Of a DNA stretch of 64,000 nucleotides, positions 126 to 53,930 are shown in pieces. The stretch lies in sequence record PZ452583.1. The stretch is one strand, 5' to 3'. Source of the stretch: a phage. Each line of letters begins with the position of its first letter. The stretch's first letter is position 1. Below the pieces are notes generated by a model that did not search any database, was not told where the DNA came from, and saw only the letters and a list, made by a program, of their open reading frames with translations. A program made the translations under genes and the position numbers.

Positions 126-506
126 TCACTTAGTCAAATTTTTTACGCATGAATTATAAGAATTCACTACATACTCCATCGGAGCATTTTTACCAGTACG
201 CCATTGGTAATTATTAGCCCAATTAGCCCAAAGCTCGGCGCAGTAGTTTTCAATTTTTTCTTCGCGTGTAATTACATCCGAATTACGATATGCTTGAGCA
301 GATTCATCTGGACGAATAGCTTCGTCAAAATTCGCCTGCATTTGTTCGACTGTTTGCTTTGGAGCTTCTTTATAACACTTGACATTAGGATTATAAAACT
401 TGCTTGAACAGTTTACAATTTTTCCTACATCAGACTGATTTACTACCGGTCCTTGAGCCACACAACCAGTAAGACCTAATGCAATAACCAAAATAGCGAT
501 TTTCAT
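126..506 (-). CDS. Putative lipoprotein (signal peptide with lipobox LTGC)
   Basis: ORF track 126 aa; N-terminus MKIAILVIALGLTGC; ATG at 506..504 preceded by AGAGGAAA Shine-Dalgarno. Confidence 0.6.
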   Translation of the reverse strand: MKIAILVIALGLTGCVAQGPVVNQSDVGKIVNCSSKFYNPNVKCYKEAPKQTVEQMQANFDEAIRPDESAQAYRNSDVITREEKIENYCAELWANWANNYQWRTGKNAPMEYVVNSYNSCVKNLTK

Positions 507-33509: not shown

Positions 33510-33718
33510 AACCATGTAACCTTTAAGCAATATTCTTCTACATGTTGTTTACGACCTTTCTTATCAATAAAGGTATATTCAACGAATGTTCCAATGTAGT
33601 CTTTATCTACATCATGTGGACTATTAATTGGACATTTAGTACGGCAAATGCGTTCCCATTGACGAATAATTACTGCTTTGTTTTTAGGATCAAACGGATG
33701 CGGGTAATGTACTTTCAT
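33506..33718 (-). CDS. Hypothetical protein
   Basis: ORF track 70 aa. Confidence 0.45.
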   Translation of the reverse strand: MKVHYPHPFDPKNKAVIIRQWERICRTKCPINSPHDVDKDYIGTFVEYTFIDKKGRKQHVEEYCLKVTWL

Positions 33719-34169
33719 AATCCACCACTATTAAATCAATATCAGGAGTAAACATGTCGATTAATTTAGAAACCTTATCCCAATCGCCGCCAGCAATACC
33801 ACAACCTATGCGTGGAATGTAAATTACCGGTTTAAACAAAAGGGTTTCTGCCTGTAGATTTAATTCTATCATGCAGTTTACTAAAGCACCATAATCAAGA
33901 TTAGGACCTGGTTCGTATTGCGTATACAAGTTATAACATATGCCAAAACCATTAGGTTTATGTTTAAAAACAATAGACATATCGCCTAATTTATCACGAG
34001 AACCGTACTCAGTAGTGGTTTTATCTATTTCTAAAATTTTGGGATAGGCTCTTGCTAATTGACCCGCTACACCTGAACCCATAGTATGAAAACAATTGCA
34101 CCCGTGCGCAATAATATTACCTTGAAGAAATAGGGCGACAATATCGCCCTTGATATATTTTACAATCAT
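33690..34169 (-). CDS. Macrodomain-like protein (predicted ADP-ribose binding/hydrolase)
   Basis: ORF track 159 aa; N-terminal KGDIVAL...GNIIAHGCNCFHTMGSGVAGQLA and C-terminal IPRIGCGIAGGDW resemble macrodomain signature regions. Confidence 0.55.
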   Translation of the reverse strand: MIVKYIKGDIVALFLQGNIIAHGCNCFHTMGSGVAGQLARAYPKILEIDKTTTEYGSRDKLGDMSIVFKHKPNGFGICYNLYTQYEPGPNLDYGALVNCMIELNLQAETLLFKPVIYIPRIGCGIAGGDWDKVSKLIDMFTPDIDLIVVDYESTLPASV

Positions 34170-34507
34170 CTAGTACTCAATCCTCGATTATAAGAATCTA
34201 CCAAACGGTCAACCATTGAATGACAAGCGGCTTTATCTTTCTCCTCCGCAACTGAACATTCTAAGGTATTCCACTTTTTAGCATATCGTTTTAACAGTGT
34301 ATCATTTTTGTATCTGCTTGATTTATCTCTTTCTCCGTCTTTATATGCATATATTAATTTCTGCGCAAATTCAGCTTGGCATGCTTTATTTTTCCCGCAA
34401 TAATCCGCTGCAGTACGGTTTACATACTCTCTAATTTCAGTATATGATGTATCTGCTAACGCAGAAAATGAAATTAATCCTATACATAAAACCAAAATTT
34501 TAGTCAT
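34166..34507 (-). CDS. Hypothetical exported protein (signal peptide), T4 vs position
   Basis: ORF track 113 aa; N-terminus MTKILVLCIGLISFSALADTSY is a typical Sec signal peptide. Confidence 0.55.
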   Translation of the reverse strand: MTKILVLCIGLISFSALADTSYTEIREYVNRTAADYCGKNKACQAEFAQKLIYAYKDGERDKSSRYKNDTLLKRYAKKWNTLECSVAEEKDKAACHSMVDRLVDSYNRGLSTR

Positions 34508-35045
34508 TTACTATTTCCAAAAGTTTATTATTTTTAAGGTAATTAGCCTTTTCTAGGACTTCAGAAGCATATTTAGAACCTGCTTTAACATTCCATCCCG
34601 AATTATAAGAGGATATTGCTTTTCTTATATCGCCCTTATGTATATTTAACCAATAAGAAAGTTCAATGTACGCCCAGGAAGCTGAATTGGACCGTTTATT
34701 CAACATTCTTTTTATTTCAGCATCGGTCATATTATAACCAAGTTCCTTAACTCTTGCTCGCATAGTAGGCAAATAATTTTGGAACATTCCATAAGCGTGA
34801 TGCTTTGGTTTAGATTTTAAATTAACTCCGCCAGAGCTTTCTTGCCATAAAATAGCAGCCATTATATGACCTAATCCGCTCTTGTGGATATTTTTGTGTG
34901 TTTTATATTTTCCATCCTTAGAAAATTGTTCCCCGAATTGATACGCGTAACGCATGTTATCGAGTTGGACATTACTGAAAGTATGCTCGGAGCTATGTGC
35001 CATCATTGAAATGGCCAATAGACCAGCGAGTAGTGCTTTTCTCAT
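34500..35045 (-). CDS. Predicted periplasmic lytic transglycosylase (SLT-like)
   Basis: ORF track 181 aa; signal peptide MRKALLAGLLAISMMAHS; SLT-like motifs ILWQESSGG, YGMFQ, SSYNSG. Confidence 0.6.
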   Translation of the reverse strand: MRKALLAGLLAISMMAHSSEHTFSNVQLDNMRYAYQFGEQFSKDGKYKTHKNIHKSGLGHIMAAILWQESSGGVNLKSKPKHHAYGMFQNYLPTMRARVKELGYNMTDAEIKRMLNKRSNSASWAYIELSYWLNIHKGDIRKAISSYNSGWNVKAGSKYASEVLEKANYLKNNKLLEIVND

Positions 35046-35052
35046 GCTTACC

Positions 35053-35514
35053 TCATTGAGTTTTAATTACTGCTTTAGAAGCCTTTCCTGGTAAACGACG
35101 ACTGTTGATAATTGCCATCCTGCATTGAAGTGACGGGTTTTTGAACTTCTCATTAGGCTTACAAACCGTAAATCCAAGCCAAAGATTTCCATCTGTGATT
35201 TCTAAACGTCCAGGACGATATTCAACCCCATCAATAAAATCCTCGTCAATGTCAGGACGCGGAGGCATACTCAGGAATTCATTAACTTCTAAAACATGGT
35301 CTTTTATTTTATGGAATAATTCAAAAACATATGTCTCATCAATCTCCCGTTGAATTGCACGATCAAGAAGATGCTGAGAATATTTTAGATGAAACGATGA
35401 GACCCCTGCTGCTTTTGATGCCTCACGAATCTCATTGTTAATTTGACGAAACTCCGACTCAAAGTGACGACGAAGCTTATTTCGACGGATAAAAACTTCT
35501 GTATTGATAGTCAT
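35053..35514 (-). CDS. regB: RegB site-specific endoribonuclease
   Basis: ORF track 153 aa (T4 size); T4 synteny (between the vs region and denV). Confidence 0.8.
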   Translation of the reverse strand: MTINTEVFIRRNKLRRHFESEFRQINNEIREASKAAGVSSFHLKYSQHLLDRAIQREIDETYVFELFHKIKDHVLEVNEFLSMPPRPDIDEDFIDGVEYRPGRLEITDGNLWLGFTVCKPNEKFKNPSLQCRMAIINSRRLPGKASKAVIKTQ

Positions 35515-35541
35515 GTTATTCTCCTCTTAACTGATAGAAAA

Positions 35542-35571
35542 ATTATACCACAGTCAAGAGGAAAAGTAAAC
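35542..35571 (-). promoter_or_regulatory. T4 early-promoter-like element upstream of regB
   Basis: Minus strand GTTTAC, 18-nt spacer, TATAAT, then GAGGAG and the regB ATG. Confidence 0.5.
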
Positions 35572-35573
35572 AG

Positions 35574-35852
35574 TTATTCTTTAAATCTAATCAATTTATT
35601 CATAGACTTTGAAACTTCTGCACGAACCTCATGTAAGTTTTTAAGCTGTTCAAGACGCTGCTCATAGTAAGCAATTTCATCTTCTTCGAGACAGTCCTGT
35701 GAATCTTCTTTAAGATAACGTGCATAGTCCTGAAAAGCTTTACGGACTACTTCCTGGAAGTCATCAAGACTTTGAATTTTCTTAGGAGCGGCAGATACAC
35801 GACGAGGTGCAGTATAATACTCATAACCAAACCCTGCACTTAATTGAGCCAT
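35574..35852 (-). CDS. Hypothetical protein
   Basis: Track ORF 35574..35894; supported start ATG 35852..35850 overlapping the upstream stop. Confidence 0.5.
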
Positions 35853-38661: not shown

Positions 38662-39630
<969 letters not shown>

Positions 39631-51628: not shown

Positions 51629-52219
51629 ATGCTCTTTACATTTTTTGATCCGATTGAATATGCGGCCAAAACGGTGAATAAAAACGCGCCGACTATTCCT
51701 ATGACAGATATTTTTAGAAACTATAAAGACTATTTTAAACGCGCTCTTGCGGGATACCGCTTACGTACTTATTATATTAAAGGTTCACCACGCCCGGAAG
51801 AATTAGCAAATACTATATATGGAAATCCACAGTTGTATTGGGTTTTATTGATGTGTAATGATAATTATGACCCGTATTATGGATGGATTACTTCACAAGA
51901 AGCTGCTTATCAAGCATCTATACAAAAATACAAAAACGTAGGTGGAGACCAAATAGTATATCATGTGAATGAAAACGGTGAAAAATTTTATAATTTAGTA
52001 TCATACGATGATAATCCATATGTTTGGTATGATAAAGGCGATAAAGCTAAAAAATATCCTCAATATGAAGGAGCGCTTGCTGCGGTCGATACGTATGAAG
52101 CTGCTGTTCTTGAAAATGAAAAACTTCGTCAAATAAAAATAATAGCAAAATCAGACATCAATTCATTTATGAACGACCTTATACGTATAATGGAGAAATC
52201 TTATGGAAATGATAAGTAA
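51629..52219 (+). CDS. 53: Baseplate wedge protein gp53
   Basis: ORF track 196 aa (T4 size); GGAGGG Shine-Dalgarno; late promoter upstream. Confidence 0.9.
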   Translation: MLFTFFDPIEYAAKTVNKNAPTIPMTDIFRNYKDYFKRALAGYRLRTYYIKGSPRPEELANTIYGNPQLYWVLLMCNDNYDPYYGWITSQEAAYQASIQKYKNVGGDQIVYHVNENGEKFYNLVSYDDNPYVWYDKGDKAKKYPQYEGALAAVDTYEAAVLENEKLRQIKIIAKSDINSFMNDLIRIMEKSYGNDK

Positions 52220-53930
52220 TAACCTTAATTGGTTTGTTGGTGTTGTTGAAGATAGAATGGACCCATTAAAATTAGGTCGTGTTCGTGTTCGTGTTGTTGG
52301 TCTGCATCCACCTCAAAGAGCACAAGGTGATGTAATGGGTATTCCAACTGAAAAATTACCGTGGATGTCAGTTATTCAACCTATAACTTCTGCAGCAATG
52401 TCAGGAATTGGAGGTTCTGTTACTGGACCAGTAGAAGGAACTAGAGTTTATGGTCATTTTTTAGACAAATGGAAAACTAACGGAATTGTCCTTGGCACGT
52501 ATGGTGGAATAGTTCGCGAAAAACCGAATAGACTTGAAGGATTTTCTGATCCAACTGGACAATATCCTAGACGTTTAGGAAATGATACTAACGTACTAAA
52601 CCAAGGCGGTGATGTAGGATATGATTCCTCTTCTAATGTTATTCAAGATAGTAACTTAGACACTGCAATAAATCCTGATGATAGACCACTATCAGAGATT
52701 CCAACTGATGATAATCCAAACATGTCAATGGCTGAAATGCTTCGCCGTGATGAAGGATTAAGACTAAAAGTTTATTGGGATACTGAAGGATATCCGACAA
52801 TTGGTATTGGTCATCTTATCATGAAGCAGCCAGTTCGTGATATGGCTCAAATTAATAAAGTTTTATCAAAACAAGTTGGTCGTGAAATTACAGGAAATCC
52901 AGGTTCTATTACAATGGAAGAAGCGACGACTTTATTTGAGCGTGATTTGGCTGATATGCAACGTGATATTAAATCACATTCTAAAGTAGGACCAGTCTGG
53001 CAAGCTGTCAACCGTTCTCGCCAAATGGCATTAGAAAATATGGCATTTCAGATGGGTGTTGGCGGCGTAGCTAAATTTAACACAATGTTAACTGCTATGT
53101 TAGCAGGAGATTGGGAAAAAGCATATAAAGCCGGTCGTGATTCATTGTGGTATCAACAAACAAAAGGCCGTGCATCCCGTGTTACCATGATTATTCTTAC
53201 GGGAAATTTGGAATCATATGGTGTTGAAGTGAAAACTCCGGCTAGGTCTTTATCGGCAATGGCTGCGACTGTAGCTAAATCTTCTGATCCAGCTGATCCT
53301 CCTATTCCAAATGACTCAAGAATTTTGTTCAAAGAACCAGTTTCTTCATATAAAGGCGAATATCCTTATGTGCATACAATGGAAACTGAAAGTGGACATA
53401 TTCAGGAATTTGATGATACCCCTGGGCAAGAACGATACAGATTAGTTCATCCAACTGGAACTTATGAAGAAGTATCACCGTCAGGAAGAAGAACAAGAAA
53501 AACTGTTGATAATTTGTATGATATAACCAACGCTGATGGTAATTTTTTGGTAGCCGGTGATAAAAAGACTAACGTCGGTGGATCAGAAATTTATTACAAC
53601 ATGGATAATCGTCTTCACCAGATAGATGGAAGCAATACAATATTTGTACGTGGCGATGAAACTAAGACGGTTGAAGGTAATGGAACTATCCTAGTTAAAG
53701 GTAATGTTACTATTGTAGTTGAAGGTAATGCTGACATTACAGTTAAAGGAGATGCTACCACTTTAGTTGAAGGTAATCAAACTAACACAGTAAATGGAAA
53801 TCTTTCTTGGAAAGTTGCTGGGACAGTTGATTGGGACGTTGGTGGTGATTGGACAGAAAAAATGGCATCTATGAGTTCTATTTCATCTGGTCAATACACA
53901 ATTGATGGATCGAGGATTGACATTGGCTAA
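52203..53930 (+). CDS. 5: Baseplate hub/central spike with lysozyme domain gp5
   Basis: ORF track 575 aa (T4 size); internal lysozyme domain MAEMLRRDEGLRLKVYWDTEGYPTIGIGHL; C-terminal VxGxxxxxV beta-helix repeats. Confidence 0.95.
   Translation: MEMISNNLNWFVGVVEDRMDPLKLGRVRVRVVGLHPPQRAQGDVMGIPTEKLPWMSVIQPITSAAMSGIGGSVTGPVEGTRVYGHFLDKWKTNGIVLGTYGGIVREKPNRLEGFSDPTGQYPRRLGNDTNVLNQGGDVGYDSSSNVIQDSNLDTAINPDDRPLSEIPTDDNPNMSMAEMLRRDEGLRLKVYWDTEGYPTIGIGHLIMKQPVRDMAQINKVLSKQVGREITGNPGSITMEEATTLFERDLADMQRDIKSHSKVGPVWQAVNRSRQMALENMAFQMGVGGVAKFNTMLTAMLAGDWEKAYKAGRDSLWYQQTKGRASRVTMIILTGNLESYGVEVKTPARSLSAMAATVAKSSDPADPPIPNDSRILFKEPVSSYKGEYPYVHTMETESGHIQEFDDTPGQERYRLVHPTGTYEEVSPSGRRTRKTVDNLYDITNADGNFLVAGDKKTNVGGSEIYYNMDNRLHQIDGSNTIFVRGDETKTVEGNGTILVKGNVTIVVEGNADITVKGDATTLVEGNQTNTVNGNLSWKVAGTVDWDVGGDWTEKMASMSSISSGQYTIDGSRIDIG

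What the first reader, a model, noticed from the sequence alone, without database searches (positions are those of the whole stretch)
34166..35045. Two exported early proteins, one a lytic-transglycosylase-like enzyme, separate from lysozyme e and gp5
ORF 34500..35045 has a Sec signal peptide and SLT-like motifs (ESSGG, GMFQ, SYNSG); the adjacent 113-aa ORF also has a signal peptide, which is unexpected for the T4 vs-position product, described as a cytoplasmic valyl-tRNA synthetase modifier. The window therefore encodes three murein-active domains. A periplasmic transglycosylase made early could act in superinfection exclusion or cell-wall remodelling rather than lysis.
Basis: partly seen in the sequence, partly recalled or inferred. 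Interest (0 to 1): 0.45.

Follow-up and report, generated by a model that had tools for sequence, protein, structure and literature searches.

The report
T4 vs.1–vs exported murein-enzyme gene pair
These two ORFs are the known phage T4 genes vs.1 and vs: vs.1 encodes a predicted exported cell-wall-cutting enzyme (already suggested in the literature), and its tightly linked neighbour Vs, labelled for decades as a cytoplasmic valyl-tRNA-synthetase modifier, carries every sequence hallmark of an exported protein.

Summary
The window is a T4-type phage (99.8% identical to phage TH09).

**Vs.1 (34500-35045, minus strand).** It is 100% identical to T4 Vs.1.
- It passes the Pfam SLT threshold.
- The ES, GxxQ and YNxG motifs are invariant in 46 unique homologues.
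- E69 aligns with the catalytic E37 of T7 gp16.
- The SLT similarity was already published (Nolan 2006, citing Miller 2003), so this part is known.

**Vs (34166-34507, minus strand).** It is T4 Vs. The mature part is identical; there is a 2-residue deletion in the signal peptide.
- Across about 90 family members the N-terminus is always signal-peptide-like.
- In CC31-type phages it is a lipobox.
- The mature four-helix protein always keeps four cysteines.
- In 54 of 55 loci vs starts -8 to +3 nt from the vs.1 stop.
- The family occurs only in T4-like phages.

**Public T4 data.** RNA is early and protein middle for both. Both are non-essential but carry a fitness cost when disrupted; vs most strongly in minimal medium.

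**Best reading.** This is an early, translationally coupled periplasmic pair: a lytic transglycosylase plus a small partner protein. Export and enzyme activity are predicted, not shown. The conflict with the ValRS-modifier label is real and unresolved.

The parts
34500..35045 (-). vs.1 CDS (181 aa): predicted Sec-exported family-1 (SLT/GH23) lytic transglycosylase
34992..35045 (-). Vs.1 signal peptide, residues 1-18 (MRKALLAGLLAISMMAHS|S)
   Evidence: Heuristic n/h/c-region analysis. pLDDT is below 55 for residues 1-20 against above 90 for the rest. All 46 unique homologues keep M-K/R-K, a hydrophobic core and a small-x-small site, although the sequence itself varies.
34839..34841 (-). Codon of Glu69, the predicted catalytic acid (the E-S motif in WQESSGG)
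   Evidence: E69 is invariant in 42 homologues and in 46 unique homologues. hhalign places it on T7 gp16 E37 (WTES), with YGMFQ on LGMMQ and SYNSG on AYNQG. That E37 is gp16's catalytic residue comes from my memory of Moak & Molineux, not from a tool.
34166..34507 (-). vs CDS (113 aa): a small predicted exported four-helix protein, annotated as 'valyl-tRNA synthetase modifier'
34454..34507 (-). Vs signal peptide, residues 1-18 (MTKILVLCIGLISFSALA|DTS). It is 2 residues shorter than in T4.
   Evidence: pLDDT is below 50 for residues 1-18. All 45 unique full-length family members from loci have the same architecture, and CC31-type members have the lipobox ALSG|C. In the large protein collection 45 of 48 full-length members are signal-peptide-like; the other 3 look like truncated gene calls.
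34223..34399 (-). Span holding the four conserved Cys codons of mature Vs: C37 (34397-34399), C43 (34379-34381), C84 (34256-34258), C95 (34223-34225). These are two predicted loop-closing disulfides.
   Evidence: All 45 unique locus proteins, and 45 of 48 database proteins, have exactly four Cys after residue 25. The spacing is C-x5/6-C ... C-x8/10-C. The cysteines sit at the helix1-helix2 and helix3-helix4 turns. That they form disulfides is an inference.
34500..34507 (-). 8-nt overlap of the vs.1 stop with the vs start (AAATGACTAA). The Shine-Dalgarno sequence for vs is weak, so translational coupling is likely.
   Evidence: Read directly from the sequence. In 54 of 55 loci the gap is -8 to +3 nt. 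All 17 loci found from the Vs side have a gap of -4 to +2.
35542..35570 (-). T4-early-type promoter (GTTTACT-17-TGgTATAAT) upstream of regB. It probably drives the regB-vs.1-vs-tk.4 unit.
   Evidence: The promoter scan gives 10 of 12 matches with an extended -10. The sequence was read. No minus-strand terminator-like site lies between regB and vs. T4 vs and vs.1 RNAs are classed as early.
35053..35514 (-). regB (endoribonuclease), the upstream neighbour in the same transcription unit
   Evidence: Pfam REGB_T4 at 5.9e-69.
33690..34169 (-). tk.4 (macro-domain protein, AdfM). Its start overlaps the vs stop (ATGA).
   Evidence: Pfam Macro at 6e-8. T4 tk.4 was named adfM, an anti-DarTG2 factor, in preprint 10.1101/2025.11.20.689424.

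Best explanation
The finding is the T4 gene pair vs.1-vs. It lies inside the early regB-vs.1-vs-tk.4 transcription unit.

Vs.1:
- It is made as a precursor with a cleavable Sec signal peptide and released into the periplasm as a protein of about 18.8 kDa.
- It is a single-domain family-1 (SLT/GH23) lytic transglycosylase.
- Glu69 is predicted to act as the single catalytic acid, cutting the MurNAc-GlcNAc bond of host murein to leave 1,6-anhydro-MurNAc ends.

Vs:
- It is translated from a start codon that overlaps the vs.1 stop, and it is exported as well.
- Export is by signal peptidase I in T4 and as a lipoprotein in CC31-type phages.
- It becomes an 11-kDa four-helix protein stapled by two disulfides.
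- It most likely works in the periplasm together with Vs.1, as a partner or regulator.

Joint role: the pair modifies the sacculus in a limited, non-lytic way from the early-to-middle period. It is dispensable but improves phage fitness, most clearly in minimal medium. It is distinct from entry (the gp5 lysozyme) and from lysis (holin t plus lysozyme e).

Shown here by computation:
- identity to T4 genes;
- the SLT profile, fold and motifs;
- conserved export signals;
- the conserved four Cys;
- the near-invariant adjacency of the two genes.

Taken from public data: expression timing and mutant fitness.

Inferred, not shown:
- actual export and processing;
- lytic-transglycosylase chemistry;
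- the disulfides;
- a physical or functional Vs-Vs.1 interaction;
- the physiological role.
For: Identity:
- Vs.1 is 100% identical to T4, and Vs is 99% identical with an identical mature part.

Enzyme (Vs.1):
- Pfam SLT matches above its gathering score.
- Foldseek's top hits are MltD, a GH23 chitinase and Slt70.
- E69, S71, G86, Q89, N90, Y147, N148, G150 and Y159 are invariant in 46 unique homologues.
- The motifs align in register with T7 gp16.

Export:
- n/h/c-region analysis supports a signal peptide in both proteins.
- The rule has low background, and rI serves as a positive control.
- Signal features are conserved while the sequence and length of the N-terminus drift.
- CC31-type Vs carries a lipobox.
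- The only differences between this Vs and T4 Vs are in the signal peptide.
- Four Cys are conserved in mature Vs.

Coupling:
- The stop and start codons overlap by 8 nt.
- 54 of 55 loci found from the Vs.1 side, and 17 of 17 from the Vs side, have vs directly after vs.1. These include Acinetobacter and Pseudomonas T4-like phages.

Expression:
- There is an early-type promoter upstream of regB.
- T4 omics classify both genes as 'early RNA, middle protein'.

Fitness (HIDEN-SEQ supplement):
- Both genes are non-essential.
- In the LB control, insertions give 26.6 (vs) and 22.6 (vs.1) reads per site. The neighbours give 178.6 (regB), 289.6 (tk.4) and 652 (vs.3).
- LB versus M9: vs log2FC -2.19 (adjusted p 0); vs.1 log2FC -0.87 (p 0.0055, adjusted 0.155).
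- The authors argue against widespread polar effects.
Against: - Nothing here demonstrates export, cleavage, muralytic activity or a Vs-Vs.1 contact.
- SignalP was not available, so signal peptides were judged by heuristics and conservation.
- Vs.1-like exported enzymes occur without Vs in Ackermannviridae, Felixounavirus and one Aeromonas phage. In a Slopekvirus the two genes are 1.2 kb apart. Vs is therefore not obligatory for the enzyme.
- Two loci have a truncated vs next to an intact vs.1.
- The classical literature assigns gene vs to a factor that binds cytoplasmic ValRS, cited in PMC8076793. I recall, but could not check, that it also has in-vivo effects on valS-ts hosts.
- The read-density argument comes from a preprint. 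Read density can also reflect transposon site bias or local polarity.
Confidence: 0.6

Rival explanations
1. The annotation is right. Vs is the 'tau' polypeptide that binds host valyl-tRNA synthetase in the cytoplasm. Its hydrophobic N-terminus is either not used for export or is used only partly. Its position next to vs.1 is mere synteny.
For: - There is a long-standing functional label: Muller & Marchin 1975 and 1977, as cited in PMC8076793.
- The vs deletion has a defect specifically in minimal medium, which fits a role in translation.
- Mature Vs is 11.0 kDa. I recall tau being reported at about 10 kDa, so the ORF's size fits.
Against: - The signal-peptide architecture is conserved in 45 of 45 and 45 of 48 family members, and a lipoprotein variant exists. 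That only makes sense for an exported protein.
- Four cysteines are conserved in disulfide-like pairs.
- No internal start codon could give a leaderless form (first internal Met is M98).
- Coupling to an exported enzyme is invariant across phages of Escherichia, Enterobacter, Serratia, Acinetobacter and Pseudomonas.
- N-terminally His-tagged Vs was insoluble when expressed in E. coli.
- The original T4 sequence record lists the ORF only as 'ORF 60.9', without a vs label. I could not find the experimental basis of the later assignment.
- If tau really is about 10-11 kDa, that matches the signal-peptide-cleaved form, which would be extracytoplasmic.
Confidence: 0.2
2. Vs.1 is an auxiliary secreted endolysin. 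It contributes to lysis or lysis timing, in the manner of signal-peptide or SAR endolysins, and Vs keeps it inactive until lysis.
For: - It has a muralytic fold with an export signal.
- PHROG gives weak hits to 'endolysin' and 'lytic tail protein' families.
- Felixounavirus homologues are annotated as 'putative lysin' and lie near rIIA/rIIB and a spanin.
- rI lies 2 kb downstream in T4-like genomes.
Against: - It has early RNA and middle protein, unlike late lysis genes.
- It is not next to holin t or to e.
- Holin t received no transposon insertions in the T4 screen, while vs.1 is non-essential.
- Infected cells do not lyse while Vs.1 accumulates.
Confidence: 0.12
3. The pair protects the infected cell from later-arriving phages. 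This would be superinfection exclusion or resistance to lysis from without, and would work by altering murein or by neutralising incoming tail lysozymes, analogous to Spackle.
For: - Both are early, periplasmic, small and non-essential, as is T4 Spackle, which inhibits the gp5 lysozyme (PMC7677548).
- The fitness cost appears in mixed-population competition assays, where superinfection occurs.
Against: - From my own knowledge, the known exclusion phenotypes of T4 are accounted for by imm and sp.
- A minimal-medium-specific plaque defect is not an obvious consequence of lost exclusion.
Confidence: 0.1
4. Vs.1 is a catalytically dead murein-binding protein that has kept the SLT fold only as a binding module.
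For: - The sequence profile match is marginal (25.1 bits).
- A family profile finds no solved lytic transglycosylase by sequence.
Against: - The catalytic Glu and all three family-1 motifs are invariant across 46 unique homologues down to about 40% identity.
- They align in register with T7 gp16.
Confidence: 0.05

Closest known systems
Phage T4 genes vs.1 (NP_049725, UniProt P13311) and vs (NP_049724, P13310)
   Same: The proteins are identical or nearly so (100% and 99%). The order regB-vs.1-vs-tk.4 and the overlapping stop and start codons are the same.
   Different: This phage's Vs has a 2-residue deletion and one substitution, all inside the signal peptide. Nothing else differs.
Bacterial family-1 lytic transglycosylases (E. 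coli Slt70, MltC, MltE; P. aeruginosa MltF, Slt, MltD); Pfam SLT, CAZy GH23
   Different: Vs.1 is a minimal single domain of 163 mature residues, without the superhelical, LysM or lipid-anchor modules. It is encoded by a virulent phage and made early. Sequence identity is only 13-19%. A family profile does not reach any solved lytic transglycosylase by sequence.
Virion-borne phage lytic transglycosylases (T7 gp16 N-terminal domain, phiKZ gp144)
   Different: Those enzymes are packaged in the particle, lack signal peptides and act from outside at entry. Vs.1 has a Sec signal and is synthesised inside the infected cell. In T4 the entry enzyme is the gp5 lysozyme (GH24).
T4 Spackle (gp61.3), the periplasmic inhibitor of the gp5 lysozyme
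   Same: Like Vs, it is a small, early, signal-peptide-bearing, helical, non-essential periplasmic T4 protein that deals with a murein glycosidase (PMC7677548, PMC7650644).
   Different: No fold or sequence similarity was detected. The Spackle gene is not adjacent to its target's gene, whereas vs is translationally coupled to vs.1. No inhibitory activity of Vs is known.
Specialised lytic transglycosylases with a protein partner (for example EtgA-EscI of the type III secretion system)
   Different: No secretion machine is known to be assembled by T4 in the infected cell. Vs is unrelated to EscI. The partner relationship is an inference.
Signal-peptide and SAR endolysins (for example P1 Lyz, phage 21 R, fOg44 Lys44)
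   Same: Both are phage muralytic enzymes exported by the host Sec system.
   Different: Those are late lysis genes controlled by holins or pinholins. vs.1 is early, lies in a non-lysis operon, and is non-essential while t and e carry out lysis.

Membership tests
Family-1 lytic transglycosylase (Pfam SLT PF01464 / CAZy GH23) | Profile match above the curated threshold | tested here: met
   25.1 bits against a gathering score of 21.3, E 1.4e-5, residues 61-154. The margin is small. Nolan 2006 found E 0.012-0.74 for six orthologues.
Family-1 lytic transglycosylase (Pfam SLT PF01464 / CAZy GH23) | Goose-type-lysozyme-like all-helical catalytic fold | tested here: met
Family-1 lytic transglycosylase (Pfam SLT PF01464 / CAZy GH23) | Catalytic Glu in an E-S motif, plus the G-L/M-x-Q and A/S-Y-N-x-G motifs | tested here: met
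   E69-S70, G86-M-F-Q89 and S146-Y-N-S-G150 are present. E69, G86, Q89, Y147, N148 and G150 are invariant in 46 unique homologues. They align in register with T7 gp16 WTE37S / LGMMQ / AYNQG (hhalign E 0.19, so the register is suggestive and the score is not).
Family-1 lytic transglycosylase (Pfam SLT PF01464 / CAZy GH23) | Non-hydrolytic cleavage giving 1,6-anhydro-MurNAc, which distinguishes these enzymes from g-type lysozyme hydrolases in the same fold | not testable with these tools
   No conserved acidic residue lies between E69 and Q89, which fits a single-acid transglycosylase. E128 is also invariant and its role is unknown. Muropeptide analysis is needed.
Sec / signal peptidase I secretory proteins (both Vs.1 and Vs) | Tripartite signal: a positive n-region, a hydrophobic h-region of about 10-15 residues, and small residues at -3 and -1 | tested here: met
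   Heuristic analysis. Only 5 of 178 window ORFs pass the rule, including the known exported rI. SignalP was not available.
Sec / signal peptidase I secretory proteins (both Vs.1 and Vs) | The signal is conserved as a physicochemical pattern across divergent homologues while its sequence and length drift | tested here: met
   Vs: 45 of 45 unique locus proteins and 45 of 48 database proteins, with indels concentrated in the N-terminus and a lipobox variant in CC31-type phages. Vs.1: all 46 unique homologues.
Sec / signal peptidase I secretory proteins (both Vs.1 and Vs) | Demonstrated translocation and cleavage | not testable with these tools
   This needs fractionation, reporter fusions, or a search for the semi-tryptic N-terminal peptide (for example DTSYTEIR for Vs) in T4 proteome data.
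T4 Vs family (PHROG 1256; Pfam PF26829 as precomputed) labelled 'valyl-tRNA synthetase modifier' | Sequence membership | tested here: met
   99% identical to T4 Vs. phrog_1256 at 5.2e-40. All database relatives carry PF26829.
T4 Vs family (PHROG 1256; Pfam PF26829 as precomputed) labelled 'valyl-tRNA synthetase modifier' | Cytoplasmic residence, as required to bind ValRS in vivo | tested here: not met
   By prediction only. The evidence is a conserved export signal, a lipoprotein variant, four conserved Cys, and no internal start codon for a leaderless form.
T4 Vs family (PHROG 1256; Pfam PF26829 as precomputed) labelled 'valyl-tRNA synthetase modifier' | Binding to and modification of valyl-tRNA synthetase by this ORF's product | not testable with these tools
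   The papers by Marchin and co-workers and the Miller 2003 review are not held in the library. The 1986 sequence record names the ORF only as 'ORF 60.9'.
Periplasmic protein inhibitors or partners of murein glycosidases (Spackle, Ivy, PliG, Tsi3) | Fold or sequence relationship to a known inhibitor | tested here: not met
Periplasmic protein inhibitors or partners of murein glycosidases (Spackle, Ivy, PliG, Tsi3) | Small exported protein genetically linked to the enzyme | tested here: met
   vs directly follows vs.1 in 54 of 55 and 17 of 17 loci. Binding and inhibition were not tested.
Exported (signal-peptide / SAR) endolysins | Late expression within a holin-controlled lysis module | tested here: not met
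   RNA is early and protein middle. The gene sits in the regB-tk.4 operon, 3.6 kb from e, and is non-essential.

The most novel reading that the evidence does not exclude
The ORF that every T4-like genome annotates as 'valyl-tRNA synthetase modifier' in fact encodes a periplasmic (in some phages lipid-anchored) disulfide-bonded partner of the exported lytic transglycosylase Vs.1.

Under this reading there are two possibilities:
- The classical vs/tau function was assigned to the wrong ORF.
- The tau-ValRS complex forms only when the compartments are mixed on cell breakage.

The vs.1-vs cassette would then be an uncharacterised early cell-wall-remodelling module of T4-like phages. Its loss would explain the minimal-medium defect recently ascribed to ValRS modification.
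Probability: 0.4. Interest if true: 0.65.

Novelty: already known. Interest (0 to 1): 0.42.

Why it matters
**What is ordinary.** As a genome feature this is ordinary. The two ORFs are T4 genes sequenced in 1986. The SLT-like nature of vs.1 has been noted since 2003-2006 and appears in some GenBank annotations.

**What is worth attention.** Three things came out of the comparison:
- Vs.1 is a well-conserved third murein enzyme of T4-like phages. It is predicted to be exported, it is found in about 2,000 phage records, and it has never been characterised. Reviews still speak of only two T4 lysozymes, e and gp5.
- The Vs family has a universally conserved export signal and four conserved cysteines.
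- vs is almost always fused end-to-start to vs.1.

The second and third points are hard to reconcile with the 'valyl-tRNA synthetase modifier' label, which is propagated to every T4-like genome, including Acinetobacter and Pseudomonas phages.

**Why it is timely.** A 2025 transposon screen made vs the strongest minimal-medium fitness gene of T4 and interpreted that through ValRS. A few simple experiments could therefore either rescue or overturn a 60-year-old assignment. They could also define a new envelope function.

Tried and rejected
- **Sequence search of Vs.1 and Vs against PDB chains.** No hits. A Vs.1 family profile against PDB gave only sub-threshold noise. The link to lytic transglycosylases therefore rests on Pfam, fold and motifs.
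- **NCBIfam and PADLOC.** No hits for either protein, so there is no evidence of a defence or anti-defence family.
- **Profile search of 1.84 billion representatives for Vs.** 8 relatives. A wider profile in the 5.8-billion collection gave 46 proteins, all phage. One is labelled A. baumannii but sits on a 169-kb contig, which is presumably phage. I rejected a bacterial origin or wider family.
- **Vs as a lipoprotein in this window.** 'LVLC' at residues 5-8 is not a lipobox, because Leu is at -1, and C8 is not conserved. Rejected for T4-type Vs. The lipobox is real only in CC31-type Vs.
- **An internal start giving a cytoplasmic Vs.** No Met lies between residues 2 and 97. Rejected.
- **Vs as a strict antitoxin-like immunity protein for Vs.1.** This is weakened by vs.1 insertions themselves being costly and by two loci with a truncated vs and an intact vs.1. 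It is not excluded.
- **Primary literature on vs/tau and the Miller 2003 review.** I tried to read them, but they are not held. Searches for 'valyl-tRNA synthetase modifier' with 'signal peptide', and for vs.1 with 'peptidoglycan', found nothing.
- **Scan for Vs loci with the full 24-sequence alignment.** It failed because the alignment was too divergent. A sub-alignment worked.
- **Predicted-structure limits.** Model coordinates are not returned, so Cys-Cys distances were not measured.
Full report
**What is there**

The window is a T4-type phage. Bases 33600-35600 are 99.8% identical to Escherichia phage TH09 and at least 95% identical to about 500 Tequatrovirus records.

On the minus strand the gene order is as follows:
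- regB: 35053-35514
- vs.1: 34500-35045
- vs: 34166-34507
- tk.4: 33690-34169

This is the same order as in T4. The 181-aa ORF is 100% identical to T4 Vs.1. The 113-aa ORF is T4 Vs with a two-residue deletion and one substitution, all inside the N-terminal hydrophobic segment, so the mature parts are identical.

**Check of the observation**

- Both N-termini have the classical tripartite signal-peptide layout. Vs.1 reads MRK / ALLAGLLAISMMA / AHS|S. Vs reads MTK / ILVLCIGLISFS / ALA|D.
- No SignalP was available, so I wrote a stringent rule and ran it on all 178 ORFs of at least 60 aa in the window.
- The rule returns five ORFs: Vs, Vs.1, rI (a known exported T4 protein, which serves as a positive control), a lipobox ORF at 126-506, and one spurious antisense ORF.
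- Lysozyme e (38662-39156) and gp5 with its lysozyme domain (52203-53930) are in the window. Vs.1 is unrelated to e in sequence.
- The statement 'three murein-active domains' therefore holds.

**Vs.1 is an SLT/GH23-type enzyme**

- Pfam SLT matches above its curated threshold (25.1 against 21.3 bits). PHROGs places the protein in a family of unknown function, with weak hits to lytic tail proteins and endolysins.
- No solved structure is reachable by sequence.
- An AlphaFold model built on 42 homologues is confident (pLDDT 88, with only residues 1-20 low).
- In 46 unique homologues down to about 40% identity, E69, S71, G86, Q89, N90, Y147, N148, G150 and Y159 are invariant.
- A profile alignment to the T7 gp16 N-terminus is weak in score but in register for all three motifs. 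It puts E69 on gp16 E37, which I recall as the gp16 catalytic residue.
- Whether the chemistry is transglycosylase or hydrolase cannot be decided here. The lack of a conserved second acid between E69 and Q89 favours a transglycosylase.

**This part is not new**

Nolan et al. 2006 list vs.1 as a conserved ORF with marginal SLT similarity in six T4-like genomes, and say this corroborates earlier PSI-BLAST matches to lysozyme. Several GenBank records already call the protein 'transglycosylase SLT domain-containing protein'. I found no experimental study of it. A 2020 paper on Spackle still opens with T4 having two lysozyme genes, e and 5.

**Vs**

- Sequence searches find only T4-like phage proteins. 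There are six clusters by word search and eight representatives among 1.84 billion proteins. A broader profile finds 46 clusters, all of 95-118 aa and all carrying the precomputed Pfam PF26829.
- The model is a four-helix protein: helices 16-37, 41-61, 68-84 and 89-110, pLDDT above 90 from residue 20 on and below 50 for residues 1-18.
- Three features are conserved throughout the family:
  1. Every full-length member has a basic, acid-free n-region, an 11-20 residue hydrophobic core and a small-x-small site. This holds for 45 of 45 unique proteins from loci and 45 of 48 from the large collection. The other three look like gene calls started at an internal Met. Sequence and length drift freely in this segment.
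  2. The Enterobacter CC31 / Cronobacter Pet-CM3-4 group has replaced the signal peptidase I site by a canonical lipobox, ALSG|C. Swapping one export signal for another is expected only for a protein whose place of work is outside the cytoplasm.
  3. The mature part always holds exactly four cysteines, spaced C-x5/6-C ... C-x8/10-C. They sit at the two helix-hairpin turns. This is the pattern of two loop-closing disulfides.
- There is no internal start codon that could yield a leaderless form.
- A structural-genomics study found N-terminally His-tagged Vs insoluble in E. coli. That is compatible with this picture but is weak evidence.

**The two genes form a cassette**

- Here the vs start overlaps the vs.1 stop by 8 nt and has only a weak Shine-Dalgarno sequence, whereas vs.1 has GAGG.
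- I retrieved 51 viral loci through Vs.1 motifs and added GenBank loci.
- With HMMs of both families, 54 of 55 loci have a Vs-family ORF starting -8 to +3 nt from the vs.1 stop. Two of these are truncated.
- The set includes Acinetobacter and Pseudomonas T4-like phages, where Vs is only 20-27% identical to T4 Vs.
- Loci retrieved from the Vs side give 17 of 17, though they are mostly the same genomes.
- The sample is biased towards closer relatives. Exported Vs.1-like proteins also occur without Vs in Ackermannviridae, Felixounavirus and an Aeromonas phage. In a Slopekvirus the two genes are 1.2 kb apart.
- Vs.1 is therefore the older and wider element (about 2,046 phage records by tblastn). 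Vs is a partner added within the T4-like (Straboviridae) phages.

**Expression and phenotype, from public T4 data**

- A T4-early-type promoter (GTTTACT-17-TGgTATAAT) precedes regB. No minus-strand terminator-like site separates regB, vs.1 and vs.
- The T4 dual-omics study classes both genes as early RNA and middle protein, so both proteins are made.
- In the HIDEN-SEQ preprint both genes are non-essential: 30 of 32 TA sites were hit in vs and 46 of 52 in vs.1.
- After competition in LB, insertions in vs and vs.1 are about ten-fold rarer per site (26.6 and 22.6) than in the flanking regB (178.6), tk.4 (289.6) or vs.3 (652).
- In M9 glucose, vs is the most depleted T4 gene (log2FC -2.19, adjusted p 0). 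vs.1 moves the same way (-0.87, p 0.0055, not significant after correction).
- A clean vs deletion plaques poorly on M9.
- The authors see little polarity in their system. The shared cost suggests a shared pathway but does not prove it.

**Most likely mechanism**

This is an early, translationally coupled periplasmic pair. Vs.1 cuts glycan strands of the host sacculus at a low, non-lytic level. Vs acts with it or on it. The larger defect of vs than of vs.1 in minimal medium would fit a restraining role for Vs. The similar costs in LB would fit an obligate partnership. I cannot choose between these.

My probability estimates:
- About 0.9 that both proteins are exported.
- About 0.85 that Vs.1 is an active SLT-type enzyme.
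- About 0.5 that Vs works through Vs.1.

The physiological purpose is open. Candidates are wall remodelling for cell enlargement or turnover, protection against later phages, and lysis timing.

**The conflict with the annotation**

- The classical vs product ('tau') is described as binding ValRS. I recall, but could not check, in-vivo effects on valS-ts hosts.
- I could not read the primary papers or the Miller 2003 review.
- The 1986 sequence record lists the ORF only as 'ORF 60.9', so the basis for the assignment is unknown to me.
- Mature Vs would be 11.0 kDa against 12.9 kDa for the precursor. I recall a size of about 10 kDa for tau. If this ORF is tau, that size would match the processed, and therefore exported, form.
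- There are three possibilities: the ORF was mis-assigned; a fraction acts in the cytoplasm; or the complex forms after cell breakage.
- No paper in the searchable library mentions a signal peptide in Vs.

**Verdict**

As a feature it is already known: these are exact T4 genes, and the SLT similarity is published. The residual interest is that the export signature of Vs and the vs.1-vs cassette contradict a widely propagated functional label. They also point to an uncharacterised third murein enzyme system in T4-like phages, which can be tested with simple experiments.

Noticed in passing
window 126-506 (-): This 126-aa ORF has a canonical lipoprotein signal (MKIAILVIALGLTG|C). It belongs to phrog_1754, of unknown function. 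It is another predicted exported protein of this phage.
   Followed up: partly
window 34132-34150 (both strands), inside the 5' end of tk.4, 16 nt after the vs stop: A GC-rich hairpin (AGGGCGATATTGTCGCCCT) scores as terminator-like on both strands. It could attenuate transcription or stabilise the mRNA between vs and tk.4. It lies within coding sequence.
   Followed up: no
window 33690-34169 (-), tk.4: This macro-domain protein (Pfam Macro) is annotated 'phosphatase' in RefSeq. A 2025 preprint shows that T4 tk.4 is required against the DarTG2 defence system and renames it adfM. The operon therefore mixes an RNase, two envelope proteins and an anti-defence enzyme.
   Followed up: partly
L057:2453-3070 (Salmonella phage STP55), plus hits H9-H12 and the names given for P0014 and P0044: Vs.1 homologues are mis-annotated as 'RegB site-specific RNA endonuclease' or 'Endoribonuclease' in several GenBank and UniRef records. 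The label was evidently transferred from the neighbouring regB gene.
   Followed up: partly
L004:3875-4297 (Aeromonas phage 60AhydR15PP): This phage has vs.1 but no Vs-family gene. A non-homologous 140-aa protein with a clear signal peptide (MKKLVLASILSISFSAFA|N) sits just upstream of the macro-domain gene, in the position that vs occupies in T4. It may be a functional replacement.
   Followed up: no
L021:3541-3798 (the 155,101-bp contig matches Escherichia phage vB_EcoM_005) and L039:3691-3876: The vs gene is truncated or frameshifted (85 aa and 61 aa) while the adjacent vs.1 is intact. This is either sequencing error or natural loss of Vs with the enzyme retained.
   Followed up: no
window 35516-35570 (-): The regB leader has a near-consensus T4 early promoter. 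Its Shine-Dalgarno sequence, GAGGAG, contains GGAG, the RegB cleavage motif, which fits the known autoregulation of regB. The vs.1 Shine-Dalgarno sequence (GAGG) and the vs ribosome-binding site lack GGAG.
   Followed up: no
L001 (T4 RefSeq NC_000866, 58-68 kb): Some RefSeq product names look like name-driven errors. mobD.4 is called 'molybdopterin-guanine dinucleotide biosynthesis protein MobD', and rI.-1 is called 'starvation-inducible transcriptional regulator'.
   Followed up: no
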